A stretch of DNA of 56,703 bases, taken from contig DASVEG010000023.1 of NCBI GenBank assembly GCA_036380695.1, positions 1 to 56,703 of the forward strand. Direction: 5' to 3'. This document shows, piece by piece, positions 12,158 to 53,140 of the stretch. The notes beneath the pieces are model-generated. The model ran no database searches. It had not been told where the DNA came from and saw only the letters and a list, made by a program, of their open reading frames with translations. A program made the translations under genes and the position numbers. This stretch comes from Acidimicrobiales bacterium (GTDB lineage Bacteria; Actinomycetota; Acidimicrobiia; Acidimicrobiales; CADCTF01). Numbering within the stretch: the first letter of the stretch is position 1; the number at the start of each line of letters is the position of its first letter.

Positions 12158-12171
12158 GGGACCTTTGGCCC
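12158..12171 (+). promoter_or_regulatory. DosR-box-like motif
   Basis: GGGACCTTTGGCCC, 61 nt before ATG 12233. Confidence 0.6.
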
Positions 12172-12232
12172 TCGTTGACGGTCCTCGCCGTCCGTACCGT
12201 CGGACGAAACGACGATCGACGGAGGCACAGCC

Positions 12233-13279
12233 ATGAAGGCACTCGTGTACAAGGGCCCCGGCCGCAAGGCGTGGGAGGACGTACCGGATCCCGTGATCGA
12301 GGCCGACACGGATGCCATCGTCCGCGTCGACGCCGTCACGATCTGCGGCACCGACCTGCACATCCTCAAGGGCGACGTACCCACGGTGACCGAGGGGCGG
12401 GTCCTCGGCCACGAGGCCGTTGGCACGGTCGAGCAGGTCGGCTCGAGTGTGAAGAACGTGCGGGTCGGCGACCGCGTGCTGGTGTCGTGCATCACCGCCT
12501 GCGGGTCGTGTCGCTTCTGCCGTGAGGGTCGCTACGGCCAGTGCCTCGGTGGCGGTGGCTGGATCCTCGGCCATCTGGTCGACGGCACGCAGGCCGAGCG
12601 GGTCCGCGTGCCATTCGTCGACACGTCGACGCATCCGGCGCCGGACGGTGTGTCCGACGAGGAGCTCCTGATGCTCGCGGACATCCTCCCGACCGGCTAC
12701 GAGGTCGGCGTGCTCAACGGCGGCATCAAGCCTGGTGACGTCGTCGCCGTCGTTGGCGCGGGCCCGATCGGCCTGTCGGCCATCGCGGCGTCGAGGCTGT
12801 ACAGCCCGAGCCATGTCGTCGCGATCGACAAGGCCGACAGCAGGCTCGAAGCGGCGAAACAGTTCGGCGCGGACGTCGTCGTGAACAACGACCGCGAGGA
12901 CCCCCTCGCCATCGTGCGCGACCTCACCGACGGTCTGGGTGCGGACGTCGCCATCGAAGCCGTCGGCGTGCCTGCGACCTTCGAGTTGTGCGCCGCGCTC
13001 ATCCGGCCCGGGGGCAGGGTTGCGAACATCGGCGTGCACGGCGAGCCGGCGACGCTCCACCTCGAGGAGCTCTGGATCCGCGACGTCACCATCACCACCG
13101 GTCTCGTCGACACGTACTCGACGCCGACGCTGCTCAAGCTGCTCGTCAGCCACCAGGTGGAGGCGAAGCGGTTCGTGACCCACCACTTCGACCTCGACGA
13201 CTTCGAGGAGGCCTACGACACCTTCGCCCGGGCGGGAGACACGGGCGCGTTGAAGGTCGTCCTGACCAGAAGCGCCTGA
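12233..13279 (+). CDS. zinc-dependent alcohol dehydrogenase (MDR family)
   Basis: MKALVYKGPG...CGTDLHILKGD...GHEAVGTV...GAGPIGL Rossmann motif. 348 aa. Confidence 0.9.
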   Translation: MKALVYKGPGRKAWEDVPDPVIEADTDAIVRVDAVTICGTDLHILKGDVPTVTEGRVLGHEAVGTVEQVGSSVKNVRVGDRVLVSCITACGSCRFCREGRYGQCLGGGGWILGHLVDGTQAERVRVPFVDTSTHPAPDGVSDEELLMLADILPTGYEVGVLNGGIKPGDVVAVVGAGPIGLSAIAASRLYSPSHVVAIDKADSRLEAAKQFGADVVVNNDREDPLAIVRDLTDGLGADVAIEAVGVPATFELCAALIRPGGRVANIGVHGEPATLHLEELWIRDVTITTGLVDTYSTPTLLKLLVSHQVEAKRFVTHHFDLDDFEEAYDTFARAGDTGALKVVLTRSA

Positions 13280-13304
13280 GCGGACTGTCGCCGGAGGCGG
13301 AGCC

Positions 13305-15776
13305 ATGGCCCACGTCGTCGATGTGGCGGACGCGACCGACTCCGGCGGCAGCGACGGGCTCTCCGGTGCCGAGGCGCAGCGACGCCTCGCCGCCGATGGT
13401 CGGAACGAGCTGCCGGAGGCGCGACGGCCGGGCTGGCTGTCGCGCCTCGCGGCGCAACTCCGAGAGCCGCTTTCGCTGCTGCTCGTCGCGGCCGCGGCCC
13501 TGAGCCTTCTCGTCCTCCGGGAGATGACGGAGGGGCTCGCGATCCTCGTCATCGTCGTCCTCGACGCGGTCGTTGGTGCGGTGCAGGCGCACCGCGCGGA
13601 CGACGCGATGGCCGCGCTCCGGGAGCTGACCGCGCCGCTCGCGTCGGTGGTGCGCGATGGCCGCCCGCAGACGATCGCCGCCGCGGACGTCGTCGTGGGG
13701 GATCACGCGCTCGTGGCCGCGGGCGACCGCGTCCCTGCGGACGTTCGCGTCACCGATGCCGCCTCACTGGCATCGGACGAGGCGATCCTGACGGGCGAGT
13801 CGATCCCCGTCGACAAGTCAGTGGGCGACGTGCTGCTCGCGGGCACCCTCGTCGTCCGAGGTCACGGCGGCGGCCACGTCGTCGCGACGGGTGCGCGCAC
13901 GCAACTCGGTGCGATCGCGACGTTCCTGACGGAGGCACCGGAGCCCCCGTTGGCACGGGAGTTGCGCCGCATCGGTTCCTGGATGGCGACCGGCGCGGTC
14001 GCGCTCGGCGTCGTGGTCGTCGCGGTTGCGGTGGTGCGTGGCGACGGGGGCCGCGACTCCCTCCTCGACGGCCTGCTCGGTGGCGTGGCGCTCGCCGTCG
14101 CCGCGATACCGGAAGGCTTGCCCGCCGCGATGACGGCCTCGCTCGCGCTCGGCGCGCAACGCATGGCGCGGCACGGGGCCATCGTGCGAACGCTGACCGC
14201 CATCGAAGCGCTCGGCTCGACCACGGTCCTCTGCGTCGACAAGACCGGCACGCTGACCACCGGGCAACTCGAGGTCGACGACGCGATCCCGGCAGAGCGA
14301 ACGAGTGCCGCCGAAGCAGAGCTCTGGCTCGCGATCCTGCGGTGCAACGACGCGACCGACGGTGGTGTCGACCCCATCGACGTGGCCCTGTTGCGCGCCG
14401 CTGAGGCGCGCGGTCACACACCGATGCTCGGGCGGAGAGTCAGCGAGGAGCCCTTCGAAGCGACGACCCGCCTGATGGCGACGGTGCACGAGTTCGCGGA
14501 CGCGAGGGTGCTGTCGGTGAAGGGCGCACCGGAGGCCGTGTGGGCCAGGTGCGCGGACGGCCCGCAGCTCCGTCGCCTCGACGGGCTCGCCCGTGGCCTC
14601 GCGCAGGCGGGGCGCCGGGTGCTCGCCGTTGCATCCGCAGCGACGGACGACCTGTCGGCACGCGAACTGCAACCGTTGGGGCTCGTCGCGTTCCTCGATC
14701 CGTTGCGGCCGTCCGCGCGCGCGGCGGTGGACGCGTGCAGGCGTGCGGGTATCCGCATTGTCGTCGCGACCGGCGATCACCCCGAGACAGCGGCCGCCAT
14801 CGCGCGTGACGCCGGCCTCGATCCCGACCCCACCGTCATCGGCTCGGAGTTGCGTGATCTCGACCCAGACGAACGCCAGGCGCTTCTCGCTGAGGCCGCA
14901 GTGATCGCCAGGGTCGAGCCGGCCGACAAGGTCGCGCTCGTCGTGGCGCATCGCGCCGCCGGCCATGTCGTCGCGATGACTGGCGATGGCGTGAACGACG
15001 CGCCCGCGCTCCGCCACGCGGACGTCGGCATCGCCGTCGCCGGGGCGGCCGGGACGGACGTCGCCAGGGAGGCCGCCGACATCGTCGTCACGACCGGCGA
15101 CCTCGGCGTGCTCGTCGAGGCCGTGCGCGAGGGCAGGCGGATCTACCGCAACGTGGTCAGCCTCGTGTCGTACCTCCTTGCGGGGAACCTCAGCGAGATC
15201 ATGGTCGTGCTCGGTGGGGTGCTCTTGCTGCAAGACCTGCCCGTGCCGCTCCGGCCGGTGCATCTCCTGTGGATCAACCTGATCACCGACGGGCTGCCCG
15301 CCCTTGCGCTCGGGGTCGACTGGTCGCGCCGAGACGGCCTCGAGTTGCCGCGCCGGGAGCCCGGCACCCACCTGCTCGACCTGGCCCGCCTCCGCCTCCT
15401 CGCCGGCCGCGCGCTCGCCGTCGCTGCCGCAGCGTTGGGTGCGGGCGCATTGGCCGCGCAGATGGGGTGGTCGCCGGGCCGAGTCCAGTCGCAGCTCGTC
15501 GTGACGCTCGTACTCACCCACCTCGTGCTCGCGTACGTGTCTCGCTCGGAGCGGTTCGCGTTCGAGCGCGACTGGTGGAGGAACCGCGCGCTCGCGGCCT
15601 CGGTGTTCGGGTCGGCCGCGATGCAGGTCGTGGTGATGACGGTGCCCGCGCTCGGCGGTTGGCTCGACCTTGCCGCGTTGCCTGTCGCCGGGTGGGCGAT
15701 GGCGGTCGGAGCGTCTGTGCTCGTCGTCTGCGTGATCGATGCCGTCAGGGCGGTTCGGCGGCGCAGGGTGCGCTGA
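13305..15776 (+). CDS. cation-transporting P-type ATPase (HAD-IC, type II-like)
   Basis: CVDKTGTLT phosphorylation motif, [12 protein letters not shown] hinge motif, and multiple TM helices. 823 aa. Confidence 0.9.
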
Positions 15777-15834
15777 TCGACATTGTGTGCGAACGACGCA
15801 GGACGGGTCTCGCCGTAGATGCGCACCGGTAAAG

Positions 15835-17407: not shown

Positions 17408-18328
17408 CTAGTGGCGTCGCTGCTGCCGGCTGACGTCGGGAGGTGTCGTCTCGAGCTCAAGCGCGATGTTGCTCGTCGCGTTGCCGTCGTCGTCGGTCTG
17501 TACGACAAGGTGCGTCTTGCGGCCGTTCATCTGGAACGAGCCGTACGCGAACATGACATCGCTGAAGCGAGCGACGTCGAGTTTCACCGGCGTCTGGCTC
17601 CAATCGAGCGGGCCCAGCACGACCAGCTCCTCGATCGCGTGTAGTTCGCCCGTTGGCTCGTCGCGTAGGTAAAGGGGTTGCCCGCTCCCCAGACCGAACC
17701 CTGCCTCGAAGCCCCTCAGCCCCTGGCGGTCGTCGCGGTTGTGTGCCTCGGTCAGGATTTGGCGGCCGAACGCTTCGTTCTCGAGGAACTTCACGGCCAC
17801 GTCGAGAAGCGTGCCGACCTCGTCGCCCTCTGCGTTGTACACCGCATTGTCCGGGAACAGGCGGTGTCTTGGTGTTGTCCCGTCCGGGAGTCGCATGGTT
17901 GCCTTCACCATCTGGACGGTCATCGACACCCGGTCGGCGTAGAGCGCGAGGGTGCGTGGGTCGCCCTTCGTCCTGGTCACAGGCTCCATCAACGTGACGC
18001 TGGCGTGCGACGCAGCCTTTGTGCGTGCGGCACCGGTGAACCCGCTCCACGACACCAGCACCAGTCGATTGGTCTCGAGGTGTTCGTGCTTCGTGATCAT
18101 CTGTTCGACCCACGGCAGTTCCGCCTTCCGCACGCGGTCGATGACCTCGAACGACACGACGATGTCGATCTCGTTCAGGCGTGATCGCGCGACGACATCG
18201 ACCTCTCGCAGGACGTTGACGACAGGGTCGTGAAGTTCTTCACTTTCCGTGACGACCCACCCCTCTGGCGCGAGCGCAGTGCGGAGGAGGTACAGCGCCT
18301 TCTGTCGGTCCGTTGTCCGTCGCGGCAC
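17408..18328 (-). CDS. Mrr-like restriction-endonuclease-fold N-terminal domain fused to an unknown ~180-aa C-terminal domain
   Basis: EVDVVARS...IDIVVSFEVIDRVRK...NRLVLVSWSGFTGAARTKA resembles a PD-(D/E)xK / Mrr_cat layout. The C-terminal half has no motif I recognise. Confidence 0.6.
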   Translation of the reverse strand: MPRRTTDRQKALYLLRTALAPEGWVVTESEELHDPVVNVLREVDVVARSRLNEIDIVVSFEVIDRVRKAELPWVEQMITKHEHLETNRLVLVSWSGFTGAARTKAASHASVTLMEPVTRTKGDPRTLALYADRVSMTVQMVKATMRLPDGTTPRHRLFPDNAVYNAEGDEVGTLLDVAVKFLENEAFGRQILTEAHNRDDRQGLRGFEAGFGLGSGQPLYLRDEPTGELHAIEELVVLGPLDWSQTPVKLDVARFSDVMFAYGSFQMNGRKTHLVVQTDDDGNATSNIALELETTPPDVSRQQRRH

Positions 18329-19729: not shown

Positions 19730-19971
19730 CGCGCCCGCTCCGCAGGCCCGGTTGCTTCCCTGCCGTTCGCGCTCTGGTCGGGATGGTCGCGACCGGCTCG
19801 GCCCTGGCCGTGGCCGCTCATCATCCCGCGCATCATGAGCACCATCATCAGCGGGCAGGCGAGCACGACGGCGAGGTAGCCGAGCGCGCCGGCCTCGACG
19901 CCGAAGGCGACGAGCAATGCGGCCGCCGCGACGACGCCGACCAGGCAGTGCGTGAGGTGGTTGCGCACCAT
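19726..19971 (-). CDS. DUF2933-like small membrane protein
   Basis: HLTHCLVG...LACPLMMVLMMRGMM Cys/Met/His-rich motif. First gene of the operon that ends in csoR. Confidence 0.75.
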   Translation of the reverse strand: MVRNHLTHCLVGVVAAAALLVAFGVEAGALGYLAVVLACPLMMVLMMRGMMSGHGQGRAGRDHPDQSANGREATGPAERAR

Positions 19972-20024: not shown

Positions 20025-20038
20025 GGGCCGTTGGTCCC
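20025..20038 (-). promoter_or_regulatory. DosR-box-like motif
   Basis: GGGCCGTTGGTCCC (reverse complement GGGACCAACGGCCC), 53 nt upstream of start 19971. Same 14-mer as at 22770. Confidence 0.6.
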
Positions 20039-22769: not shown

Positions 22770-22783
22770 GGGCCGTTGGTCCC
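22770..22783 (-). promoter_or_regulatory. DosR-box-like motif in a divergent promoter region
   Basis: GGGCCGTTGGTCCC. 35 nt to ATG 22734 on the minus strand, 75 nt to ATG 22859 on the plus strand. Confidence 0.65.
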
Positions 22784-22858
22784 GACTTCGGGCGGAACAG
22801 GTCCCGGTCGGGACCATCGGCACTACCGCCGGAGTCGACGTCGGCCGACCATTCACTC

Positions 22859-24033: not shown

Positions 24034-24114
24034 GTGTCGAGCGTGCCGGTGGCTGCGGTGATGGGCGCAGGGTCGGACGACCCTTCCGGCGACGGGCGGC
24101 GACGTCCCATGCGC

Positions 24115-24207: not shown

Positions 24208-24221
24208 AGGACATTCGACCC
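24208..24221 (+). promoter_or_regulatory. degenerate DosR-box-like motif
   Basis: AGGACATTCGACCC, exactly 35 nt before GTG 24257. Confidence 0.45.
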
Positions 24222-24256: not shown

Positions 24257-26340
<2,084 letters not shown>

Positions 26341-26379: not shown

Positions 26380-27027
26380 ATGACGACGCGGGTGTTCCTG
26401 CTCGACGACCACGAGGTCGTGCGGCGCGGCCTGAGGGAGCTCCTCGAGGGTGACAGCGACATCGAGGTCGTCGGCGAGGCGGGCACCGCCGAGGAGGCGT
26501 TGACCCGCATCCCGCCGACCCGCCCCGACGTTGCCGTGCTCGATGTCCAGCTCCCGGACGGCAATGGGGTCGAGGTGTGCCGCGAGATCCGGTCGAGGCA
26601 CCCGGAGATCTCCTGTCTCATGCTCACGTCGTTCTCCGACGACGAGGCGCTGTTCAGCGCCATCATCGCCGGCGCCTCCGCGTACGTCCTCAAGCAGATT
26701 CGAGGCGACGAGCTGGTCAACGCGATCCGCAGGGTTGCCGCCGGGGATTCGCTGCTCGACCCGGGCGTAACGGCCAAAGTGCTCGATCGGCTCCGCGCCA
26801 AGCCCGCCGACGACGAGCTCGCGGCACTGACGGAGCAAGAGCGGCGCATCCTCGACTACATCTCGGAAGGCCTCACGAACCGGCAGATCGGGGAGGAGAT
26901 GTACCTCGCCGAGAAGACGGTGAAGAACTACGTGTCGAACATCCTGGGCAAGTTGGGCATGAGCCGCCGGACCGAGGCGGCCGCGTACGCGGCCCGGCTC
27001 GAGGAACGCCGCCAGCACAACCCGTAG
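26380..27027 (+). CDS. DevR/DosR-like LuxR/NarL-family response regulator
   Basis: MTTRVFLLDDHEVVRRG...VAVLDVQLPDGNG receiver domain. C-terminal LTEQERRILDYISEGLTNRQIGEEMYLAEKTVKNYVSNIL HTH. Confidence 0.9.
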   Translation: MTTRVFLLDDHEVVRRGLRELLEGDSDIEVVGEAGTAEEALTRIPPTRPDVAVLDVQLPDGNGVEVCREIRSRHPEISCLMLTSFSDDEALFSAIIAGASAYVLKQIRGDELVNAIRRVAAGDSLLDPGVTAKVLDRLRAKPADDELAALTEQERRILDYISEGLTNRQIGEEMYLAEKTVKNYVSNILGKLGMSRRTEAAAYAARLEERRQHNP

Positions 27028-27034: not shown

Positions 27035-27048
27035 GTGACCTTCGGCCG
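27035..27048 (+). promoter_or_regulatory. degenerate DosR-box-like motif
   Basis: GTGACCTTCGGCCG, exactly 35 nt before GTG 27084. Confidence 0.4.
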
Positions 27049-31880: not shown

Positions 31881-31894
31881 GGGACCTTCGGCCC
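31881..31894 (+). promoter_or_regulatory. DosR-box-like motif
   Basis: GGGACCTTCGGCCC, 64 nt before ATG 31959. Confidence 0.65.
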
Positions 31895-32683: not shown

Positions 32684-32697
32684 GGGACCTTCGGCCC
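32684..32697 (+). promoter_or_regulatory. DosR-box-like motif
   Basis: GGGACCTTCGGCCC, 50 nt before ATG 32748. Confidence 0.65.
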
Positions 32698-33223: not shown

Positions 33224-33763
33224 ATGCGAGCCGTCGTCGTATACGAGTCCATGTTCGGGAACACCGAGGAGATCGCCCGTGCCGTCGCCGCTGGCTTGTC
33301 GGAGACGGCGACCGTCGCGATCGCGGAGGTCGGCACGCACCCGAACGTCGACGGAGTCGACCTGCTCGTGGTCGGCGGGCCCACCCATGCGTTCGGCATG
33401 AGTCGTCCGTCCACGCGGAAGGACGCAGAGACCCGCACCGGTCGACGCGTCATCTCCGCGACGGGGCTACGCGAGTGGCTGGACGGCCTCCACGAGGTGC
33501 CTGCCACGACGAGAGTCGCGGCGTTCGACACGAGGATCCGGCGACCGCGGTTGCCCGGATCGGCGGCGAAGGCCGCGCTCAAGACCCTCCGCGGCAAGGG
33601 CGCGGTCGCGGTCGTGCCAGCGGAGACGTTCTGGGTGCACGGAACCACCGGTCCGCTGCTTGCCGACGAGGTGGCGCGAGCCCGCACCTGGGGCCGCGCC
33701 CTCGGCGAGAGGCTCGCTTCCAGCGGCACGCCGGGACCTTCGACCCTGACGCGCACCCCCTGA
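33224..33763 (+). CDS. flavodoxin-family protein
   Basis: MRAVVVYESMFGNTEEIARAVAAGL...DLLVVGGPTHAFG. Confidence 0.8.
   Translation: MRAVVVYESMFGNTEEIARAVAAGLSETATVAIAEVGTHPNVDGVDLLVVGGPTHAFGMSRPSTRKDAETRTGRRVISATGLREWLDGLHEVPATTRVAAFDTRIRRPRLPGSAAKAALKTLRGKGAVAVVPAETFWVHGTTGPLLADEVARARTWGRALGERLASSGTPGPSTLTRTP
33733..33746 (+). promoter_or_regulatory. DosR-box-like motif embedded in the flavodoxin 3' end
   Basis: GGGACCTTCGACCC, 63 nt before start 33810. Confidence 0.6.
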
Positions 33764-36436: not shown

Positions 36437-36450
36437 GGGACCTTCGGCCC
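36437..36450 (+). promoter_or_regulatory. DosR-box-like motif
   Basis: GGGACCTTCGGCCC, 35 nt before ATG 36486. Confidence 0.65.
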
Positions 36451-36778: not shown

Positions 36779-36792
36779 GGGACCTTCGGCCC
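36779..36792 (+). promoter_or_regulatory. DosR-box-like motif
   Basis: GGGACCTTCGGCCC, 64 nt before ATG 36857. Confidence 0.6.
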
Positions 36793-39782: not shown

Positions 39783-39796
39783 GGGCCGAAGGTCAG
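39783..39796 (-). promoter_or_regulatory. degenerate DosR-box-like motif
   Basis: GGGCCGAAGGTCAG (reverse complement CTGACCTTCGGCCC), 35 nt upstream of ATG 39747. Confidence 0.45.
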
Positions 39797-43795: not shown

Positions 43796-44774
43796 GGTCG
43801 CTTACCTCCACGTGAAGATCGTCTTGATCGTGCGCGCGTTCTCGCTCGGGCCACAGGGCCATTGGTCCCTCGATCGCGCCGGTGACGGAGGTGCCCGCCT
43901 CGCCGCGCAGGATGGCGGCCGCGTCGTCGAGCGCCCCGATGCCGGCGACGCCGCCACGTTGCTCGACGAAGCGGGCAGCAGCCTCGACCTTCGGCCCCAT
44001 CGATCCCGCAGCCGCTCCGAGAGAACGCAACTGTTCCGGCGTGGCTCGACGGATCGCGCTCGCCGCGGGCGTTCCCCAGCCCTCGTACACGGCGTCGACG
44101 TCGGTCAGCAGGAGCAACGCGTCCGCGCCGAGCTGCGCCGCGAGCAACGCGGCGACCAGGTCCTTGTCGACGACGGCCTCGACGCCGCGCAGGCCGTTGG
44201 CGTCCTCGACGACGGGTATGCCACCGCCGCCGGCGCAGATCACGAGGACACGGTGCTGGACGAGGAGCCGGATCGTCCGCAGCTCGACGATGCGGCCTGG
44301 CTCGGGTGACGGGACGACACGACGCCAGCGCGGCCCGTCAGGCGCGACGGTCCATCCCCGCTCGGCCGCGAGCCGCTTGGCCGACGCTTCGTCGTACACG
44401 GGACCGACGAACTTGGTGGGGTGGCCGAAGGCGGGATCGCTCGCGTTGACGACGACCTGGGTCAGGAGCACCGCGATCCGGTCCTGCACGACGTGGTCGG
44501 ACAGCTCCTGCTCGAGGAGGTAGCCGACCATGCCTTCCGTCTCCGCGCCGAGCACGTCCAACGGGTAGGGCGTCACGTCCGGGTACGCGGCGTTCTGGAG
44601 TGCCAAGAGACCCACCTGGGGTCCGTTGCCGTGGGTGAGGACGACGTCGTGGTCGCGCGCGACCTCGGCGACCGACTCGGCTGCCACCTTTGCGTTCACC
44701 CGTTGCGTAGCGGCGTCGAGGGGCTCGCCCCGCCGCAGGAGCGCATTGCCGCCCAACGCGATGACGACGAGCAT
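43779..44774 (-). CDS. arcC: carbamate kinase
   Basis: [13 protein letters not shown]...THGNGPQVG...[10 protein letters not shown]. Start overlaps the arcB stop (TGATG). The track's 483-aa N-terminal extension is rejected. Confidence 0.85.
43856..43869 (-). promoter_or_regulatory. DosR-box-like motif embedded in the arcC 3' end
   Basis: GGGCCATTGGTCCC, 60 nt upstream of ATG 43795. Confidence 0.6.
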
Positions 44775-45743: not shown

Positions 45744-46964
45744 TCATGCGGGATCGCGGACGAGCGGGCAGCTCATGCAGCGCGGCCCGCCTCTCCCGCG
45801 GCCGAGCTCGCTACCGGCGATGGTGATGACCTCGATGCCGGCCTTGCGCAACTTGGTGTTCGTGTCGACGTTGCGCTCGTACGCGACGACGACACCGGGC
45901 GCGGCGGCCAGCACGTTGTTGCCGTCGTCCCACTGCTCTCGCTCGGCTTCGAACTCGTCGCCGCCCGTGGTGAGCACGCGCACGTCGTCGAGGCCGAGCG
46001 CGGCCTTGATCGGCGCGAACACGTCGGGATGTGCGGTGACGACGATGTCGTCCGCCGAGTCGCCCGGCACCAGCGTCCACGCCCTCATGAGCTCCGCGAC
46101 GCCGGGGTACGCGACGAAGGTGTCTGCACGCACCATGGTCATGACCGTGTCGAGGTGCATGAAGGCACGCCGCGGCGGGAGCGCTGCGGCGATGACGGTA
46201 CGCGCCGCGCCGGCTCGGAACAGGGAGCGGGCGACGGTCTCGACGGCTTGCGGTGTCGTGCGCTCGCCCATGCCGATGAGGACGGCGCCGTTGCCGATCA
46301 CGAGCACGTCGCCGCCCTCGATCGTGGCCGTGCCGTGGTCGGCGTCGACACCGCCGTACCACCAGGCGAAGTCGTGGCCGGCGAACCTCGGGTGGAATCG
46401 ATAGATCGCTTCGAGGTGGGCGGTCTCGCGGCGGCGAGCACTCATCGCCATCGGGTTCACCGAGACACCGCCGTAGATCCAGCATGAGGTGTCCCTCGTG
46501 AACAGGTGGTTCGGAAGCGGCGGTAGGACGAAGCCGTTTGACCCGGCGAGCTCGGTACGCAGACTCCGGGTGGCCGCGGGCAACTCCGCGACGGTGATGC
46601 CGCCGATGAGGTGGGCCGCGGCGGTGGTCGGGTCGGCCATGGCGATGAACTCGCGAACGCCCGCGACGAGGTCTCGCCCCAGGTCTTTCTCGGTGACCAC
46701 CCGATCGAGGAGCCACGCGCGGCCGGCGTCGTCCTTGAGCACGCCGGCCAGCAGGTCGCCGACGTCGAGCACCTCGATGCCGAGATCGCGCAACGTGTCC
46801 GCGAACGCGTCGTGCTCTTGCCGGGCTCGCTTCACCCAGAGCACGTCGTCGAACAGCAGCTCGCGGCAGTTCGACGGGGTCAGCCTTCGCAGCTCGAGAT
46901 CGGGTCGATGGAGGAGGACGGACCGCAGCGTGCCCACCTCGGAGTCGACGTGGAAGTCAGCCAT
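45744..46964 (-). CDS. arcA: arginine deiminase
   Basis: [21 protein letters not shown]...FTRDTS...[10 protein letters not shown] catalytic Cys. ATG 46964 lies 36 nt from a box. Confidence 0.9.
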
Positions 46965-47000: not shown

Positions 47001-47014
47001 GGGCCATTGGTCCC
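47001..47014 (-). promoter_or_regulatory. DosR-box-like motif (arcA side)
   Basis: GGGCCATTGGTCCC, 36 nt upstream of ATG 46964. Confidence 0.65.
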
Positions 47015-47027
47015 TCATCCGCGGATG

Positions 47028-47041
47028 GGACCTTCGGCTCT
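47028..47041 (+). promoter_or_regulatory. DosR-box-like motif (permease side)
   Basis: GGGACCTTCGGCTC, 68-74 nt before ATG 47110/47116. Confidence 0.55.
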
Positions 47042-47115: not shown

Positions 47116-48561
47116 ATGACCACCACCGTCAAGCCGGCGGTCAGGACGTCGCCCGACGCCATCGTCGGCGACCCCATCGCGGGGGCAGCCCGGAAGCTCG
47201 GCCTGCCGTCCGCGACCGCGCTCGTCATCGGCAGCATCATCGGCACCGGCGTGTTCACCATGCCCGCGGTGATGGCGGGAGCGGGCACGAGCTCGATCAT
47301 CACGCTCGTCGCCATTTCCGTCGGCGCCGTGCTGCTCGCCTTGCTGTTCGGCCAGCTCACCAATCGCGTCCCGCACAACGAGGGAGGGTTGTACGCGTAC
47401 GCGCGTCACGAGTTCGGTGACTTCGCCGGCTACCTCACCGCGTGGTGCTACTGGATCACGTGCTGGGCCGGCAACGCGGCCATCGTCTCGTCGTGGGTGC
47501 TCTACGTCGAGGAGCTCTTCGGCATCGACAACCCGTCGGCGTGGGTCAACTTCGGCATCGCCATGACCGGGTTGTGGATCCCGGCGGCGATCAACCTCGT
47601 CGGTGTCCGCCAGATGGCGGTGTTCCAGAACATCACGGTCGTGCTGAAGTTCCTGCCCCTGCTGTTCGTCGGCACCGTTGGCTGGTTCTTCGTTACGACG
47701 AGCAACTTCGGTGCGTTCAACGCATCGGGCGGCAACCTGTACGACGCCATCAACCTGGCCGCAGGTGTCGCGCTCTTCTCCTTCATCGGTGTCGAGTGCG
47801 CGTCGATCGCGGCTGGTCGCGTCAAGAACCCGCGCCGCAACGTCGGGCGGGCGTCGGTGATCGGCACCGCAGCGAGCGCGCTGCTCTACGTCGCCGTGAC
47901 CGCCGCCGTCATGGGGCTGGTGCCCCACGAGAAGCTCGTCGACGACGGCGCCCCGTTCGTCGCCGCGTTCGACGCGATGTTCAGCGGGGGTTGGCTCGGC
48001 AAGCTCGTTGCGCTCACCGCGGTCATCTCCGGCATCGGTGCACTCAACGGGTGGACGATGGTCACCGCGGAGATGCCCTACGCAGCCGCGAAGGACGGTC
48101 TGTTCCTCGACGCCTTCGGCAAGACCAACCGCAAGGGCGTTCCCTGGTTCGGCGTCGTCGCCTCGACCGTCGTCGCGTCGCTCCTGATGGCGTGGAGCTA
48201 CAGCGGCGAGACCGGCCTCAAGGTGTTCACGTATCTCGTGTACCTGTCGGTCGTGACCGTTGCGATCCCGTACTTCATCTCGGCCTGCGCCCAGCTCGCG
48301 TTCCTCGTGTCGAGGCGTCGGCGGGTGCACGGATGGGCGCTGACGCGTGACCTGGCGATCTCGGTGGTGGGTGGTGCGTTCGCCCTGTGGGTGACGTTCG
48401 CCTCCGGCTACCAGTCGGTGTACCAGGCCATGTTGCTCCTGCTGCTCGGACTGCCGCTGTACGCGTTCCTCAAGGCCCGGCGCGAACGGCGTGGTGACGT
48501 CGACGAGCCCGTCGACATGCCCGCTGACATGCTCACCGACGACCTGGTGGACGTCCGGTAG
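47116..48561 (+). CDS. arcD: APC-family amino acid permease (arginine/ornithine antiporter candidate)
   Basis: LVIGSIIGTGVFTMP motif and 12 TM helices. GAGGAGGG lies 6 nt before ATG 47116 (alternative ATG 47110). Divergent from arcABC. Confidence 0.85.
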   Translation: MTTTVKPAVRTSPDAIVGDPIAGAARKLGLPSATALVIGSIIGTGVFTMPAVMAGAGTSSIITLVAISVGAVLLALLFGQLTNRVPHNEGGLYAYARHEFGDFAGYLTAWCYWITCWAGNAAIVSSWVLYVEELFGIDNPSAWVNFGIAMTGLWIPAAINLVGVRQMAVFQNITVVLKFLPLLFVGTVGWFFVTTSNFGAFNASGGNLYDAINLAAGVALFSFIGVECASIAAGRVKNPRRNVGRASVIGTAASALLYVAVTAAVMGLVPHEKLVDDGAPFVAAFDAMFSGGWLGKLVALTAVISGIGALNGWTMVTAEMPYAAAKDGLFLDAFGKTNRKGVPWFGVVASTVVASLLMAWSYSGETGLKVFTYLVYLSVVTVAIPYFISACAQLAFLVSRRRRVHGWALTRDLAISVVGGAFALWVTFASGYQSVYQAMLLLLLGLPLYAFLKARRERRGDVDEPVDMPADMLTDDLVDVR

Positions 48562-49352
48562 TGGCACCGCGACGCGCACTGGTCCGCCGGCCAGGCCCAC
48601 GGCTCGACGAGGGCATCGTCACCAACATCGCCCGCGTACCCGTCGATGACCGGCTGGCGGTCGAGCAGTGGGATCGGTACCTCGCGGCGTTCGCCTCGAG
48701 CGGGTGGGACCTCTTGGAGGTCCCACCCGCCGACGACTGCCCGGACGCCGTCTTCGTCGAAGACGCGATGGTCGTCTTCCGCAACGTGGCGGTCATCACG
48801 CGACCGGGTGCGGAGTCTCGGCGGCCGGAGACCGTGGAGATCGACAAGGTCGCCGAGTCGCTCGGGCTCTCCCTCAACCGCATCGTGGCTCCGGGGACGC
48901 TCGACGGCGGTGACGTGCTCAAGGTGGGCAACACGATCTACGTCGGCCGCGGGGGCCGCACGAACGCCGAGGGCGTGAAGCAGCTCCGAGCCATCCTCAC
49001 CCCGCTCGGGGCGACGGTTGTCGCGGTGCCGGTCCGCAAGGTGCTCCACCTGAAGTCGGCGGTCACCGCCCTGCCGGACGGATCTGTTGTCGGCTTCCCG
49101 CCTCTCGTCGACGACCCTGCGTTCTTCCCTCACTTCGTGCCCGTGCCGGAGGAGTCGGGTGCGCACGTCGTCGATCTCGGAGGCGGGCGCGTGCTGATGG
49201 CGGCGGACTGTCCCGAGAGCGCACGGCTCGTCGGGTCGCTGGGCTACGACGTGGTGGCTGTCGACATCAGCGAGTACCAGAAGCTCGAGGGATGCGTGAC
49301 GTGCCTGTCGGTCCGCATCCGCGCGATGCACGGCAGCGGGGGGTTTCGGTGA
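48561..49352 (+). CDS. amidinotransferase / dimethylarginine dimethylaminohydrolase (DDAH)-family protein
   Basis: PDAVFVEDAMVV...LDGGDVLKVG...LHLKSAVTAL...LEGCVTCLS catalytic Cys. GTG start overlaps the arcD stop. Confidence 0.8.
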   Translation: MAPRRALVRRPGPRLDEGIVTNIARVPVDDRLAVEQWDRYLAAFASSGWDLLEVPPADDCPDAVFVEDAMVVFRNVAVITRPGAESRRPETVEIDKVAESLGLSLNRIVAPGTLDGGDVLKVGNTIYVGRGGRTNAEGVKQLRAILTPLGATVVAVPVRKVLHLKSAVTALPDGSVVGFPPLVDDPAFFPHFVPVPEESGAHVVDLGGGRVLMAADCPESARLVGSLGYDVVAVDISEYQKLEGCVTCLSVRIRAMHGSGGFR

Positions 49353-50244: not shown

Positions 50245-50258
50245 AGGCCGATCGGCCC
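50245..50258 (+). promoter_or_regulatory. weak DosR-box-like motif
   Basis: AGGCCGATCGGCCC, 57 nt before ATG 50316. Weakest match listed. Confidence 0.3.
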
Positions 50259-50315: not shown

Positions 50316-50591
50316 ATGCCGACCCCGACACTCGAGGCCTACAAGAGGGCGGAGGTCACCGCGGCCAAGGAGGAGAGCCGCCGCGGCTTCACCGTCCACC
50401 TCGTGATCACCCTCATCGTGTGGGCGATCCTGATCGCGGTCAACGTGTTCGTCGCCTCGGAGTTCCCGTGGTCGATCTTTCCGGTCGTCGGTATGACGAT
50501 CGGGCTGCTCGCCCACTGGTACTTCGGCGTGGTGCACGTCGACGCGAGCGTGCAGAAGCACCAGCGCGACATCGAGCGGCGCGCTGCGTAG
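50316..50591 (+). CDS. 2TM-domain small membrane protein
   Basis: AAAGGAGA lies 7 nt upstream of the ATG. RRGFTVHLVITLIVWAILIAVNVF...PWSIFPVVGMTIGLLAHWY. Confidence 0.75.
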   Translation: MPTPTLEAYKRAEVTAAKEESRRGFTVHLVITLIVWAILIAVNVFVASEFPWSIFPVVGMTIGLLAHWYFGVVHVDASVQKHQRDIERRAA

Positions 50592-50640: not shown

Positions 50641-50750
50641 CGTTCCGCGCTGCGACCGCGACGAGGTAGCCGGGACGTTTGGCACTGTGTCGTCGATCGT
50701 CCGGACCGCACCGTCGAACCTGTACTCGCTCTCATGTGGAGGTGGTTGGG

Positions 50751-51473
50751 ATGCCGGTTCCTACTTCAGGTGTCGCATGGTGGGGCTCGCTCCTGTGGCT
50801 CGCGGCGGTCACGGTTGCGGCGTTCGGCGTCGCGTGGGTCACGGGGACTCGCCTCCACGTTCGCCGTGCCGCGTACATCCCGATCCTGCTGATCGTCACC
50901 GCTGCGCTCTGGATCGGCTACGTCGACTGGCTCGGCCTGGACGTAGGCGATGCCGCGACCAACCGTTGGGACTGGGGCGTTGCCGGCGGGCTAGTCGCAG
51001 GTTTTGCCCTCGCTGCCGCGGTCAGGACCCAACCCGTCGACCGGCACGTCGCACGGCGCGAGCTTCCGCTGACCCTTGCGTGGGAGGGCGTGGTCTACGG
51101 CATCGGAGAGGGGATGTTGCTCGCGGGCCTGCCCGCGTTCGTCGCGTGGCAGATGGTGCACTCGCTCGGGTGGGGCGGGTTCCCCGGCGCTCTGGCTCGC
51201 TGGACGCTCCCGGTGGTGGCCGCCGCGGTCGTCATCGTCACGCACCACCTCGGCTACTGGCACTGCAGGGGCCGCATCCTGCTCCCGATCACGCTCGCCT
51301 GCAGCGTGCTCACGATCGCCTACCTGCTGACGGGGAGCTTCGTGGCGCCGGTGGTCGGCCACGTCGTCATGCACTTCGGTGCGGTGCTCCACGGCGTGGA
51401 GATGCCGCCCGTCGATCGTCCCGCGCGAGGCACCGGCGCTCGCGGGCGACGTCCGGCCAGGTTGGCCGCGTGA
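50751..51473 (+). CDS. hypothetical polytopic membrane protein
   Basis: GGAGGTGG lies 4 nt before ATG 50751. About 6 TM helices. Conserved-looking EG...HH.GYWH residues. Confidence 0.65.
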   Translation: MPVPTSGVAWWGSLLWLAAVTVAAFGVAWVTGTRLHVRRAAYIPILLIVTAALWIGYVDWLGLDVGDAATNRWDWGVAGGLVAGFALAAAVRTQPVDRHVARRELPLTLAWEGVVYGIGEGMLLAGLPAFVAWQMVHSLGWGGFPGALARWTLPVVAAAVVIVTHHLGYWHCRGRILLPITLACSVLTIAYLLTGSFVAPVVGHVVMHFGAVLHGVEMPPVDRPARGTGARGRRPARLAA

Positions 51474-51494: not shown

Positions 51495-51508
51495 GGGACC
51501 AATGGCCC
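51495..51508 (+). promoter_or_regulatory. DosR-box-like motif
   Basis: GGGACCAATGGCCC, 50 nt before ATG 51559. Confidence 0.6.
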
Positions 51509-51558: not shown

Positions 51559-51948
51559 ATGCATCGGAGCATGCTGGTAACGGGGCAACTGGACTTGTCG
51601 CTCGAAGAGGTGCTGGGGACCTTGGCTGCGCCGTCCGCGGCCGAGCTGCTGCGCAGCTCGCTGGCGGATGCGGTGGGTGTTGGGGGACCAGCGGTGGTGT
51701 TCTCGGTATCCGAACCCGAACGGATCGCGGCCAATTCCGGCCGAGTCAAGGTGCGGTGGCGCTCCGACGACCGTCAGTCGGCGCCGCCCGACGGTGAGGT
51801 GTCGGTGTACGTGTTCGCCCTCCGGTCGGGGAGTGAGCCGCTCACCGAGCTCGCCGTGACCATGAACGTCGACGACGTGCGCGCGACTCGGGCTGCCGCC
51901 ACCATGCACCGCGTCTTGGACGCGGTGGCTGAACGGCTCGAGCGGTGA
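51559..51948 (+). CDS. hypothetical 129-aa protein
   Basis: AAGGAGGGAGG lies upstream of the ATG. The ORF is in a high-GC3 frame. Confidence 0.6.
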   Translation: MHRSMLVTGQLDLSLEEVLGTLAAPSAAELLRSSLADAVGVGGPAVVFSVSEPERIAANSGRVKVRWRSDDRQSAPPDGEVSVYVFALRSGSEPLTELAVTMNVDDVRATRAAATMHRVLDAVAERLER

Positions 51949-51949: not shown

Positions 51950-51963
51950 AGGACCTCCGGCCC
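51950..51963 (+). promoter_or_regulatory. degenerate DosR-box-like motif
   Basis: AGGACCTCCGGCCC, 108 nt before 52072. Confidence 0.4.
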
Positions 51964-52071
51964 TGAGCCGATCGAGGGTGCCTTCCGACCGTTCGTTGCA
52001 TGACGGCATCCCCATCGTCCATCGGCGGCGCACGGCAGAGGGCTGACTAGCTCGCCATCTGCGGCTCTGCG

Positions 52072-52590
52072 ATGGCACTCAGGCTGTGGAGCTTCGTCGC
52101 GCCCGGCCGTGTCGGGAGCGAGGATCGACTTCGCGGCCGAGCCCCCGCGGAGTTCGCCCCCTACGACTCGGCGCTGCGCGCCGCGCTTGGCAGCCGCGAG
52201 CACGTGATGACGTTGCGCGCGACGGAGAAGGTCATCGAGGTCGCGCATGGTGTCACGCAGGAGCTGTGGACGTTCGACGACCAGGTTCTGGGGCCGACGC
52301 TCCGTGGCAAGGTAGGCGACAATCTTCACCTGACGAACGAGGGCAAGATCGGGCACTCGATCGACTTCCACACCAGCAATGTGGTGTGGAACGACGAGAT
52401 GCACCATCGCTCCGGGGAAGTCGCTCGTCACCAGTACGAGGCAAAGTACGCCGGCATCTTCATGTACCACTGCGGGACCGCGCCGTCGCTGCTCTACCCG
52501 ATCGTCACGCAGAAGGTCGCGAACGTCGGGAAGGGCGCGCTGGGGGTCTTCCAGGCCGGGGACGTCCAGTCGACGGGCGCCAGGTACTGA
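52072..52590 (+). pseudogene. copper nitrite reductase / multicopper-oxidase-like cupredoxin fragment
   Basis: LWTFDDQVLGPTLRGKVGDNLHLTNEGKIGHSIDFH...GIFMYHCGTAP matches domain 1 of NirK-type proteins. The ORF ends about 25 aa later, with no second domain. Confidence 0.45.
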
Positions 52591-52623
52591 GCCGTGCTGC
52601 CCGTCGCCGTGTTCGGCGCGGCG

Positions 52624-53091
52624 TCAGGATCTGCGGCGCTGGATGCCATGTTCGTCTGCGTCCAGCTCGGCTGACAGCCCTAGCCGGTCGTGCACGATCC
52701 GCCGTCCGGAGATGTGGCCGGGCTCGATGCGCACGAGGGCGTTGCGCGTGCCGTCGACGTAGGGGGTGAGCCGCCGGGCCAACTCGGTGAAGGCGGCGTC
52801 GGGCAGCTGCACGACCGTCGCCCGCCCCACCAACAGAACGCTCCATCCGGACCGGTCGCGCCCGTCGAAGTCGTCGACCTCGAACGCAACGACGTTGTTG
52901 GCGACCGCCGCGGACAGCTTCGAGCCAGGCGACGTACGGAACAGGATCGTGTCGTCCAGCCACAGGTAGTTCACGGGGAAGATCGCGGGCATCGCACCCA
53001 TCGTGATGCCGAGGCGCCCGACGGTTTGGCGCGCGAGTAGTGCTCTCGCGTCTTCCTCGCGCAAGATCTCGAGTCCTTCGTCGACCAGCAT
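52624..53091 (-). CDS. pyridoxamine 5'-phosphate oxidase (PNPOx)-family protein
   Basis: LREEDARALLARQTVGRLGIT...IFPVNYLWLDDTILFRT...GWSVLLVG. Paralogue of 24257-24715. Confidence 0.8.
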   Translation of the reverse strand: MLVDEGLEILREEDARALLARQTVGRLGITMGAMPAIFPVNYLWLDDTILFRTSPGSKLSAAVANNVVAFEVDDFDGRDRSGWSVLLVGRATVVQLPDAAFTELARRLTPYVDGTRNALVRIEPGHISGRRIVHDRLGLSAELDADEHGIQRRRS

Positions 53092-53126
53092 CTGCTCAAC
53101 ATGCGGACGTGACGACGACGCGGCCA

Positions 53127-53140
53127 GGGCCGAAGGTCAC
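53127..53140 (-). promoter_or_regulatory. degenerate DosR-box-like motif
   Basis: GGGCCGAAGGTCAC (reverse complement GTGACCTTCGGCCC), 35 nt upstream of ATG 53091. Confidence 0.5.

What the first reader, a model, noticed from the sequence alone, without database searches (positions are those of the whole stretch)
12158..53140. At least 18 oriented copies of a DosR-box-like motif GGGAC-N4-GGCCC define a dormancy-type regulon next to a DevS/DevR-like pair
The 14-mers GGGACCTTCGGCCC (4 exact copies), GGGACCAATGGCCC / GGGCCATTGGTCCC (3 copies), GGGCCGTTGGTCCC (2 copies) and one- to three-mismatch variants recur upstream of start codons. Almost all lie in intergenic DNA. Their positions are 12158, 20025, 22770, 24208, 27035, 31881, 32684, 33733, 36437, 36779, 39783, 43856, 47001, 47028, 50245, 51495, 51950 and 53127. 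The motif has the 5-4-5 architecture of the mycobacterial DosR box core (GGGAC-N4-GTCCC). Here it is consistently asymmetric (GGGAC versus GGCCC). The GGGAC half always points the same way relative to the downstream gene. The downstream genes match the classic DosR regulon: Usp, hemerythrin, PNPOx-family proteins, an Rv2004c-like kinase and a diguanylate cyclase. They also include adh plus a P-type ATPase, the ADI pathway, 2TM/DUF4389 membrane proteins and an ABC/FtsX exporter. I found no box in the devS-devR intergenic region itself.
Basis: partly seen in the sequence, partly recalled or inferred. Interest (0 to 1): 0.75.

Follow-up and report, generated by a model that had tools for sequence, protein, structure and literature searches.

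The report
DevR/DosR hypoxia-regulon promoter island
A 42-kb stretch of an actinobacterial genome carries about 20 binding sites for the oxygen/NO-responsive regulator DevR (DosR), each placed where it can switch on the neighbouring gene; this is a clean new example of a regulon already known from Mycobacterium tuberculosis and Streptomyces, not a new kind of system.

Summary
GGGAC-N4-GGCCC occurs 10 times exactly, against 0.46 expected. With the degenerate copies there are 20 sites, plus one weak one, all between 12.1 and 53.2 kb. Eighteen of the 20 lie outside coding sequence. All point the GGGAC half away from the downstream gene.

The box is half of a composite promoter: box, an invariant T, then a -10-like xANNNT 24 nt after the box (17/20 exact, p=6e-26). 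Eight genes start 35-36 nt after the box with no Shine-Dalgarno sequence, so they are probably leaderless. This puts the box at -49..-36. That is the geometry mapped for M. tuberculosis Dev boxes (33-34 nt from the start site, centre -43.5), where one DosR dimer contacts sigma-A region 4 and alpha-CTD.

The adjacent regulator is 58% identical to M. tuberculosis DevR and has an identical DNA-reading helix. The kinase has a DevS/DosT-type haem GAF domain. The commonest 14-mer is identical to predicted OsdR sites in Streptomyces coelicolor.

Verdict: a new member of a known kind, probably from an Acidimicrobiia-like actinobacterium. Modest new points are one recognisable box per promoter, a strictly directional half-site asymmetry that also holds in related genomes (30:1), and no box at devS/devR.

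The parts
24688..26319 (-). DevS/DosT-like haem-GAF sensor histidine kinase (543 aa)
   Evidence: Pfam GAF x2, HisKA_3, HATPase_c. GAF-A is 60% identical to DevS/DosT GAF-A structures, E about 1e-52, with [10 protein letters not shown] and LYLTDK conserved.
26380..27027 (+). DevR/DosR-like response regulator (215 aa), divergent from the kinase. No box upstream. It looks leaderless, with CACACT as its -10.
   Evidence: Pfam Response_reg + GerE. Best PDB match is Mtb DevR 3c3w, 255 bits, 58% identity, helix AEKTVKNY identical. No box in the spacer.
12158..12171 (+). Box GGGACCTTTGGCCC; -10 TACCGT; ATG at +61 with an SD sequence. Drives Zn-alcohol dehydrogenase (12233-13279) and a P-type ATPase (13305-15776).
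20025..20038 (-). Box GGGACCAACGGCCC; -10 CACGAT; ATG at +53 with an SD sequence. Drives a DUF2933 protein (19726-19971) and ORF 19271-19729.
22770..22783 (-). Box GGGACCAACGGCCC; -10 CACGGT; leaderless ATG at +35. Drives hemerythrin (22234-22734), probably followed by ORF 21590-22108 and the AAA_33 P-loop protein 20123-21577.
22810..22823 (+). Drives a PAS-GGDEF diguanylate cyclase (22859-23710).
24070..24083 (-). Possible weak box GGGTCGTCCGACCC (9.5 bits), followed by T and a -10 CACGCT. An ATG lies 36 nt after the box and opens the 103-aa ORF 23722-24033.
   Evidence: distance worked out from the coordinates
24208..24221 (+). Box AGGACATTCGACCC; -10 CACCAT; leaderless GTG at +35. Drives a Pyridox_ox_2 (PNPOx-family) protein (24257-24715).
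   Evidence: PNPOx relatives in at least 12 related loci carry a box 35-36 nt before the start codon.
27035..27048 (+). Weak box GTGACCTTCGGCCG, 8 nt after the devR stop; -10 CACGCT; leaderless GTG at +35. Drives a Metallophos phosphoesterase (27084-27992) and a Gmad2/Germane protein (28024-29229).
31881..31894 (+). Box GGGACCTTCGGCCC; -10 CACGCT (spacing +1); ATG at +64 with an SD sequence. Drives a 217-aa protein with no family match (31959-32612); a relative sits next to adh in L011.
32684..32697 (+). Box GGGACCTTCGGCCC; then TGACGG; -10 CACGCT; ATG at +50 with an SD sequence. Drives a CoA_binding_2 protein (32748-33221).
33733..33746 (+). Box GGGACCTTCGACCC; -10 GATCCT (spacing +1); GTG at +63 with an SD sequence. 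Drives an alpha/beta hydrolase (33810-35117) and probably reads on to DUF4389 (35704-36432).
36437..36450 (+). Box GGGACCTTCGGCCC; -10 GACACT; leaderless ATG at +35. Drives a 2TM-domain protein (36486-36764).
36779..36792 (+). Box GGGACCTTCGGCCC; -10 GACGTT (spacing +1); ATG at +64. Drives a 75-aa ORF (36857-37084).
39783..39796 (-). Box CTGACCTTCGGCCC; -10 GAACGT; leaderless ATG at +35. Drives an AT3-SGNH acyltransferase (37756-39747).
43856..43869 (-). Box GGGACCAATGGCCC, lying in the 3' end of arcC; -10 CACGAT; ATG at +60 with an SD sequence. Drives an ABC ATPase (43079-43795), a 108-aa ORF and an FtsX/MacB permease (39815-42769).
47001..47014 (-). Box GGGACCAATGGCCC; -10 GAGCAT; leaderless ATG at +36. 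Drives arcA arginine deiminase (45744-46964), arcB ornithine carbamoyltransferase (44774-45727) and arcC carbamate kinase (43779 to about 44760).
47027..47040 (+). Drives an amino-acid permease (to 48561), an ADI-family protein (48561-49352) and a tandem Usp (to 50206).
50245..50258 (+). Box AGGCCGATCGGCCC, the symmetric OsdR-like variant; T and -10 CACGGT are present on the + side only. ATG at +57 with an SD sequence. Drives a 2TM protein (50316-50591).
50672..50685 (+). Drives a 240-aa protein with no family match (50751-51473).
51495..51508 (+). Box GGGACCAATGGCCC; -10 GACGCT; ATG at +50 with an SD sequence. Drives a 129-aa ORF (51559-51948).
51950..51963 (+). Box AGGACCTCCGGCCC; -10 GACCGT; ATG at +108. 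Drives a cupredoxin-like protein (52072-52590).
53127..53140 (-). Box GTGACCTTCGGCCC; -10 CATGTT; leaderless ATG at +35. Drives a second Pyridox_ox_2 protein (52624-53091).

Best explanation
The window holds a DevS/DevR (DosS/DosR, OsdK/OsdR)-type two-component system together with a large part of its regulon.

Inferred signal path. The haem-GAF kinase senses loss of O2, or NO/CO, and phosphorylates the regulator. A dimer of the phosphorylated regulator binds the 14-bp box GGGACC-WW-YGGCCC.

Shown by sequence. Each box is followed by an invariant T, usually then G, which is a remnant of a -35 TTG. A -10-like xANNNT follows 24 nt after the box. At eight genes the start codon lies 35-36 nt after the box.

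Inferred promoter geometry. The box therefore occupies about -49 to -36, centred near -42.5. This is the class-II activator position. By analogy with the Mtb DosR-RNAP structure, the upstream protomer would touch alpha-CTD and the downstream protomer sigma-A region 4, recruiting RNA polymerase to promoters that lack a good -35.

Output. About 20 such promoters drive roughly 35 genes. They encode fermentative and anaerobic energy functions (Zn-ADH, the arcABC arginine deiminase pathway with a permease), a P-type ATPase, hemerythrin, two PNPOx-family proteins, Usp, a PAS-GGDEF cyclase, an ABC/FtsX exporter, an acyltransferase and small membrane proteins.

Orientation. The fixed orientation and the different half-sites (distal GGGACC, proximal GGGCCR read on the other strand, then T) reflect the asymmetric contacts and the overlap with the -35 region.
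For: Enrichment and placement. There are 10 exact boxes against 0.46 expected. Eighteen of 20 are non-coding where at most 9.9% of the DNA is (p=1e-16).

Composite promoter. T follows the box in 20/20 sites. A at +25 and T at +29 occur in 17/20 (background 2.2%, p=6e-26), and in 20/20 if the spacing may shift by one. Eight start codons lie at +35/36 without an SD sequence and open ORFs with Pfam domains (p=8e-6). The other genes have an SD sequence and start 50-108 nt after the box.

Match to Mtb. In every mapped Mtb promoter the proximal 18-20-bp Dev box ends 33-34 nt from the start site (PMC3177182 Table 1). That equals 35-36 nt from the 14-bp core. The cryo-EM DosR activation complex has one dimer centred at -43.5, contacting alpha-CTD and sigma-A region 4 beside a suboptimal -35 (PMC13486717).

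Regulator and kinase. The regulator matches Mtb DevR at 255 bits and 58% identity, with K179/T180/K182/N183/Y184, Q153, N167 and R196/R197 conserved and K168 changed to R. The kinase has a DevS/DosT-like GAF-A.

Streptomyces. The same 14-mer is a predicted OsdR site, and adh, hemerythrin, PNPOx and USP are shared target families.

Comparative evidence. PNPOx relatives next to devR homologues in at least 12 other actinobacterial loci carry a box 35-36 nt before the start codon. An orientation-blind scan of 80 loci, oriented only by the -10 rule, gives distal GGGAC / proximal GGGCC 30 times and the reverse once (p=1.5e-8).

Not a repeat or an RNA. Only the box and the -10 columns are conserved among the 20 promoters, and RNA folding is no better than shuffles.
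Against: There is no experimental data: no mapped start sites, no binding assay, no expression data.

Only 56.7 kb of the genome is available, so genome-wide specificity is untested.

In Mtb every DevR promoter needs at least two tandem boxes. Here a second box is recognisable only at the two divergent pairs and weakly at about three others.

No box precedes devR or devS, whereas Mtb Rv3134c-devRS and S. coelicolor osdR are autoregulated.

Position -12 of the putative -10 is C or G rather than T.

Two DosR residues at the RNAP interfaces differ (F175 to Y, A190 to G).

Paralogous DevR-like regulators elsewhere in the genome could share the site, as SCO3818 does with OsdK in Streptomyces.
Confidence: 0.85

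Rival explanations
1. The boxes are real activator sites, but another DevR-like or LuxR-family regulator encoded outside the window is the main binder. An orphan paralogue of the Streptomyces SCO3818 type is one candidate. The local DevS/DevR pair would then be only a neighbour or a co-user of the sites.
For: The closest Streptomyces and Kitasatospora relatives of the window's regulator (70-74% identity) lie mid-chromosome without an adjacent devS, like the orphan SCO3818 that shares the kinase OsdK with OsdR. No box lies in front of devR or devS here.
Against: The local regulator has the DevR recognition helix unchanged and is the only regulator of this family seen in the window. The boxes cluster tightly around it: 20 in 42 kb and none in the flanking 15 kb. 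Relatives of the same gene families lie next to devR homologues in many genomes, and box-preceded PNPOx relatives were shown in at least 12 of them.
Confidence: 0.08
2. The conserved sequence is the -35/-10 signature of an alternative (ECF-type) sigma factor, not an activator site.
For: The element is strictly oriented and is paired with a second conserved element at fixed spacing. GGGAC resembles the GGAAC-type -35 elements of ECF promoters (my recollection).
Against: From the GGGAC pentamer to the -10 hexamer is about 32 nt, and from GGCCCT about 22 nt. Both are far beyond the 16-19 nt spacer a sigma factor can bridge (worked out). The core is a dyad (GGGNC-N4-GNCCC), typical of a dimeric HTH protein. 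It is identical to OsdR/DevR sites. No sigma-factor gene was found in the window.
Confidence: 0.02
3. The motif is a dispersed repeat or an RNA hairpin (a REP-like element or terminator), or a chance product of high G+C content.
For: The sequence is a G+C-rich imperfect palindrome. Some copies lie just after stop codons (27035, 36437, 51950, 53127).
Against: Shuffles give 0.46 copies, not 10. Similarity does not extend beyond the 16 nt and the -10 columns. Folding z-scores are -0.6 to +0.9. There is no T-run. The sites sit at a fixed distance upstream of start codons, in one orientation. There are no Rfam hits.
Confidence: 0.01

Closest known systems
Mycobacterium tuberculosis DevR/DosR-DevS/DosT dormancy regulon and its Dev boxes
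   Same: The regulator is 58% identical, with an identical DNA-reading helix. The kinase has the same haem-GAF architecture. The box has the same GGGAC-N4-GNCCC dyad core. The proximal box sits at the same distance from the (inferred) start site: 33-34 nt from an 18-20-bp box, centre about -43. The -35 is suboptimal. Target families overlap: USP, a P-type ATPase (ctpF in Mtb), and PNPOx-like proteins from my recollection of the Mtb regulon.
   Different: The Mtb consensus is the symmetric GGGACT-WW-AGTCCC, and every Mtb promoter has 2-4 tandem boxes, often with the weak one nearest the promoter. Here there is one strong, promoter-proximal, directional GGGACC/GGGCCR box. The devSR genes carry no box. 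The regulon includes arcABC, an ABC/FtsX exporter, an AT3 acyltransferase and a GGDEF cyclase. The window has no hspX, nitroreductase or nar genes.
Streptomyces coelicolor OsdK/OsdR (SCO0203/SCO0204) regulon, PMC5069765
   Same: The 14-mer GGGACCTTCGGCCC is identical to predicted OsdR sites at SCO0216 (narG2), SCO0167 and SCO5979. The boxes cluster in an island around the two-component genes. adh, hemerythrin, PNPOx and USP targets are shared. Identity to Mtb DevR is similar (OsdR 61%, this regulator 58%).
   Different: The OsdR consensus is the symmetric AGGGCCGATCGGCCCT, and only site 50245 looks like that here. osdR-osdK form an operon with a box at -81. Here the two genes are divergent and carry no box.
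Class-II transcription activation by NarL/LuxR-family and other dimeric activators (site centred near -41.5 to -43.5, overlapping the -35)
   Same: A dimer site abuts or overlaps the -35 position. The -35 hexamer is weak. The site has a fixed register with the -10.
   Different: Nothing differs in principle. This is the general mechanism class to which the DevR promoters belong.

Membership tests
DevR/DosR-type response regulator (NarL/LuxR family) | Receiver domain plus C-terminal GerE/LuxR helix-turn-helix | tested here: met
   Pfam Response_reg (E 6e-27) and GerE (E 2e-17)
DevR/DosR-type response regulator (NarL/LuxR family) | Closer to DevR than to other NarL-family regulators | tested here: met
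   Best PDB match is 3c3w DevR at 255 bits and 58% identity over 209 positions. The next is VraR at 150 bits, then NarL at 110 bits.
DevR/DosR-type response regulator (NarL/LuxR family) | DNA-reading residues K179, K182, N183 and the backbone contacts Q153, N167, K168, T180, Y184, R196, R197 | tested here: met
   The alignment shows AEKTVKNY identical and Q, N and RR conserved; only K168 changes, to R. The residue list comes from PMC13486717.
DevR/DosR-type response regulator (NarL/LuxR family) | Phospho-acceptor Asp54 in PDVAVLDV(R/Q)LPDGNG | tested here: met
   The motif is conserved in the alignment. The numbering is from established knowledge of DevR; the D54E mimic is mentioned.
DevR/DosR-type response regulator (NarL/LuxR family) | Binds Dev boxes and activates transcription under hypoxia or NO | not testable with these tools
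   Needs EMSA, ChIP or RNA-seq
DevS/DosT haem-GAF sensor kinase | GAF-A, GAF-B, HisKA_3 and HATPase_c architecture, with no membrane domain | tested here: met
   Pfam hits in that order. The absence of a membrane domain was not separately tested.
DevS/DosT haem-GAF sensor kinase | GAF-A homologous to the haem-binding domain, with the proximal His and distal Tyr | tested here: met
   60% identity to 2y8h/2vzw (E about 1e-52). [10 protein letters not shown] and LYLTDK align with DevS GFPPYHPPMR and LYLTDK. The assignment of His149 and Tyr171 is my recollection of the DevS structures.
DevS/DosT haem-GAF sensor kinase | Binds haem and responds to O2, NO or CO | not testable with these tools
   Needs biochemistry
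DevR-dependent (Dev box) promoter | Dyad core GGGNC-N4-GNCCC upstream of the regulated gene | tested here: met
   10 exact and 10 degenerate copies; 18 of 20 non-coding
DevR-dependent (Dev box) promoter | Promoter-proximal box 33-34 nt from the start site (18-20-bp box), centred about -43.5, next to a weak -35 | tested here: met
   Met by sequence inference only. The -10-like ANNNT lies 24 nt after the core in 17/20 sites (p=6e-26), and eight leaderless starts lie at +35/36. This compares with Mtb Table 1 and the cryo-EM scaffold. Start sites are not mapped experimentally.
DevR-dependent (Dev box) promoter | Two to four tandem boxes, primary plus secondary; an Mtb hallmark | tested here: not met
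   No conserved column lies upstream of the box. A second box scores above background only at the two divergent pairs and weakly at 31881, 43856 and 50245. Mtb secondary sites are poorly conserved, so cryptic ones cannot be excluded.
Streptomyces OsdR box/regulon | Match to the OsdR sites (consensus AGGGCCGATCGGCCCT) and shared target families | tested here: met
   GGGACCTTCGGCCC is identical to three listed OsdR sites. adh, hemerythrin, PNPOx and USP are shared. The symmetric consensus itself appears only at 50245.

The most novel reading that the evidence does not exclude
DevR-type promoters in this lineage, and apparently across Acidimicrobiia and several other actinomycete groups, follow a directional grammar that has not been spelled out in the papers I could read. 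One dimer site with non-equivalent half-sites (distal GGGACC, proximal GGGCCR followed by T) would be enough for activation, without the tandem cooperative boxes that are obligatory in M. tuberculosis. The half-site asymmetry would encode which protomer faces sigma-A region 4. The two-component genes themselves would be outside the regulon, with no positive autoregulation.
Probability: 0.35. Interest if true: 0.45.

Novelty: new member of a known kind. Interest (0 to 1): 0.35.

Why it matters
It extends the DevR/DosR hypoxia/NO regulon, best known as the M. tuberculosis dormancy switch, to what appears to be an Acidimicrobiia-like actinobacterium. I found no paper that mentions both Acidimicrobiia and DosR.

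It gives an unusually clean set of about 20 promoters in which box, -35 remnant, -10 and start site can all be read from the sequence.

It predicts what this organism does when oxygen runs out: arginine fermentation, alcohol dehydrogenase, ion pumping, c-di-GMP signalling and envelope modification.

It also offers a natural test set for how half-site asymmetry and box number affect DosR-RNA polymerase activation. It does not reveal a new mechanism.

Tried and rejected
- Exact-protein look-ups of the regulator and the ADH in public assemblies found nothing on record, so the source genome could not be identified.
The best relative is only 77% identical (an Acidimicrobiaceae MAG), so the taxonomic assignment is tentative and a closer genome may have been missed.
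- The metagenome scan with the kinase gave one useful 2-kb contig (L081, 82% identity). It has the same divergent devS/devR arrangement and no box, and is too short for footprinting.
- The plasmid collection gave no significant match.
- There are no tRNA genes and no Rfam families in the window.
- NCBIfam added no names for the ORFs without a family; the only new hit was a below-cutoff similarity of the cupredoxin-like protein to copper nitrite reductase.
- A search for conserved secondary boxes upstream was negative.
- RNA-hairpin and repeat readings were rejected. An ECF-sigma reading was rejected on spacing.
- I could not obtain Mtb Dev-box sequences to test the directional asymmetry in Mtb. 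The supplement of PMC3177182 and the papers PMC2446764 and PMC3133309 are not held.

Full report
**Observation.** The window is 68.9% G+C. GGGACNNNNGGCCC occurs 10 times exactly on both strands, against 0.46 expected from dinucleotide-preserving shuffles, and none of 100 shuffles reached 10. Allowing one mismatch gives 21 hits against 13.7 expected, which is not significant on its own. The degenerate sites therefore had to be judged on other features. A PWM built from the 10 exact sites recovers 19 sites above 10 bits, all between 12.1 and 53.2 kb. A later PWM built from all 20 sites splits cleanly: 19-20 sites score 14 bits or more and only a handful score 8-12, although that PWM was trained on these same sites. 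The only correction is that 47028 is 47027. A weak extra site lies at 24070(-). Relaxing the pattern to the symmetric GGGMC-N4-GKCCC returns the same 10 sites, every one of the mixed A/G type and none symmetric. The asymmetry is therefore real.

**What the box belongs to.** I aligned the 20 oriented sites with their flanks. Only three things are conserved: the 14-mer, an invariant T immediately after it (20/20, followed by G in 13/20), and two columns, A at +25 and T at +29 after the box. The A/T pair is present at the exact spacing in 17 of 20 sites (background 2.2%, p=6e-26), and in 20 of 20 if the spacing may shift by one. It reads [C/G]ANNNT, the A(-11)/T(-7) core of an actinobacterial -10 element. 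Eight genes have an ATG or GTG exactly 35-36 nt after the box with no Shine-Dalgarno sequence (p=8e-6). These are hemerythrin, PAS-GGDEF, two PNPOx-family proteins, Metallophos, a 2TM protein, the AT3 acyltransferase and arcA. Their start codons sit where a start site is expected 7 nt after the -10, so I infer that they are leaderless mRNAs. The remaining genes start 50-108 nt after the box, and most have an obvious GGAGG-type ribosome-binding site. The box therefore spans about -49 to -36, and T/G at -35/-34 look like the TG of a weak -35. Eighteen of 20 boxes lie outside predicted coding sequence, although at most 9.9% of the 12-54 kb region is non-coding (p=1e-16). One box lies in the 3' end of arcC and one overlaps a stop codon. 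Two pairs are back to back and serve divergent genes: 22770/22810 and 47001/47027.

**The regulator and the kinase.** ORF 26380-27027(+) has a receiver domain and a GerE HTH. Its best solved relative is M. tuberculosis DevR (3c3w, 255 bits, E 4e-75, 58% identity), far above VraR (150 bits) and NarL (110 bits). The helix AEKTVKNY is identical. It carries K179, K182 and N183, which read the GGGAC half-sites in the DosR-DNA and DosR-RNAP structures. The other DNA contacts are conserved too, apart from K168, which becomes R. ORF 24688-26319(-), divergent from the regulator, is GAF-GAF-HisKA_3-HATPase. Its GAF-A is 60% identical to the haem domains of DevS and DosT (E about 1e-52). It keeps [10 protein letters not shown] and LYLTDK, which by my recollection of those structures carry the proximal His and the distal Tyr. 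The 60-nt spacer between the two genes has no box, even at 2 bits. devR itself looks leaderless behind a CACACT -10.

**Comparison with what is known.** The S. coelicolor OsdR consensus is AGGGCCGATCGGCCCT. The predicted OsdR sites for SCO0216 (narG2), SCO0167 and SCO5979 contain exactly GGGACCTTCGGCCC, the commonest 14-mer here. Zn-ADH, hemerythrin, PNPOx and USP genes are OsdR targets (PMC5069765). In M. tuberculosis, the promoter-proximal 18-20-bp Dev box ends 33-34 nt from the start site at every promoter where it was mapped. The fdxA box is 35 nt from the ATG and 34 nt from the start site, so that gene is leaderless (PMC3177182). Thirty-three nt from an 18-bp box is 35 nt from the 14-bp core, which is the spacing seen here. 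The 2026 cryo-EM structure of the DosR activation complex has one dimer on a box centred at -43.5 beside a suboptimal -35. The upstream protomer touches alpha-CTD and the downstream protomer touches sigma-A region 4 (PMC13486717). The window's promoters fit that class-II recruitment mechanism. The intrinsic asymmetry of the complex gives a plausible reason for oriented, non-equivalent half-sites; this last point is inference.

**Related genomes.** The best match is 77% identical, in an Acidimicrobiaceae MAG. Next come other Acidimicrobiia MAGs, and then mid-chromosome orphan regulators of Streptomyces and Kitasatospora. Homologues of the window's ADH (77-78%) and of the 217-aa ORF (68%) also lie in Acidimicrobiia MAGs. 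The source is therefore probably, but not certainly, an Acidimicrobiia-like actinobacterium. Relatives of the PNPOx, AAA_33, Usp, ADH, arc and P-type ATPase genes lie near devR homologues in many of these loci. PNPOx relatives in at least 12 loci from several orders carry a box ending 35-36 nt before the estimated start codon. I then scanned with an orientation-blind pattern and oriented the hits only by the -10 rule. Mixed half-sites have GGGAC distal and GGGCC proximal 19:0 in the Acidimicrobiia loci and 11:1 in the other actinomycete loci (p=1.5e-8 overall), again with T after the box. The directional grammar is thus a property of the system, not of this window. No related locus shows as dense an island, though L003, L012 and L023 have 7-8 PWM hits per 16-21 kb.

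**Differences from the models.**
- One strong box is recognisable per promoter. Upstream second boxes are detectable only at the two divergent pairs and weakly at three others. Mtb requires two to four tandem boxes, but its secondary sites are too degenerate for sequence to exclude them here.
- The strong box is always the promoter-proximal one.
- devS and devR have no box. A metagenomic relative (L081) with the same divergent arrangement also has none. Several other relatives do have a box 40-100 nt upstream of devR.
- The regulon here includes the arginine deiminase pathway with a divergent permease operon, an ABC/FtsX exporter, an AT3-SGNH acyltransferase and a PAS-GGDEF cyclase.

**Rivals.** A paralogous regulator might use the sites, because Streptomyces has the orphan SCO3818 that shares the kinase. 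However, the local regulator has the right recognition helix and sits in the middle of the cluster. An ECF-sigma promoter is excluded by spacing: 22-32 nt from the box elements to the -10. A repeat or RNA element is excluded by the lack of extended similarity, by unremarkable folding and by the absence of Rfam hits.

**Verdict.** This is a new member of the known DevR/DosR/OsdR kind, described here at the level of complete promoters. Interest is moderate to low (0.35). The most novel defensible reading is a single-box, directionally coded variant of DevR activation without autoregulation.

Noticed in passing
window 29233-31935 (-): An operon encodes a CsoR/CstR-like repressor (Trns_repr_metal), an MBL-fold plus rhodanese fusion and a TauE/SafE exporter. 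It looks like a sulfide/persulfide detoxification module. It sits inside the island with no DevR box of its own. The 165-aa repressor ORF is probably over-extended at its 5' end: the Pfam match covers only residues 86-156, and box 31881 lies in the extended part.
   Followed up: partly
window 37131-37777 (-): A PIN-domain toxin and a MazE/AbrB-type antitoxin lie between two box-driven units.
   Followed up: no
window 1-12000: The left 12 kb has lower G+C (about 66% against about 70%), a poor third-position coding signal and no boxes. It holds an 1178-aa ORF with a NACHT NTPase domain (6504-10040, -) and a 525-aa ORF with no family match (10665-12242, -).
   Followed up: no
L022, L025, L029, L038, L039, L041, L058 (about 15-155 nt after the regulator's stop codon): In Streptomyces loci holding the mid-chromosome orphan regulator (probably SCO3818-like), a mostly symmetric Dev-type box (GGGACCAACGTCCC, GGGACCAAAGTCCC or GGGACCTACGTCCC; in L029 GGGACCAAAGACCC) lies just downstream of the regulator gene. 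In at least L025, L038 and L039 it is followed by a PNPOx-family gene. This suggests a conserved regulator-box-PNPOx module.
   Followed up: partly
L006 9891, L014 9895, L056 9864, L061 9821, L076 3263, L080 9946: Several relatives have a box 40-165 nt upstream of their devR homologue, which implies autoregulation. The window and L081 do not.
   Followed up: partly
window 24070-24083 (-): A weak box GGGTCGTCCGACCC, followed by T, has a -10-like CACGCT and an ATG 36 nt downstream that opens the 103-aa ORF 23722-24033. It is a possible 21st promoter.
   Followed up: partly
window 17408-18328 (-): A 306-aa ORF has a marginal Mrr_cat restriction-endonuclease match (E 6e-4, below the cutoff). The stretch 15.8-19.1 kb holds several ORFs with no family match and no boxes.
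   Followed up: no
-10 regions of box-driven promoters in the window and in L001-L080: In the related loci the -10-like element is very often followed by GG (xANNNTGG, for example CCAAGATGG, CGAGCATGG, CCATCCTGG), which resembles a G-rich discriminator. In the window this is less marked.
   Followed up: no
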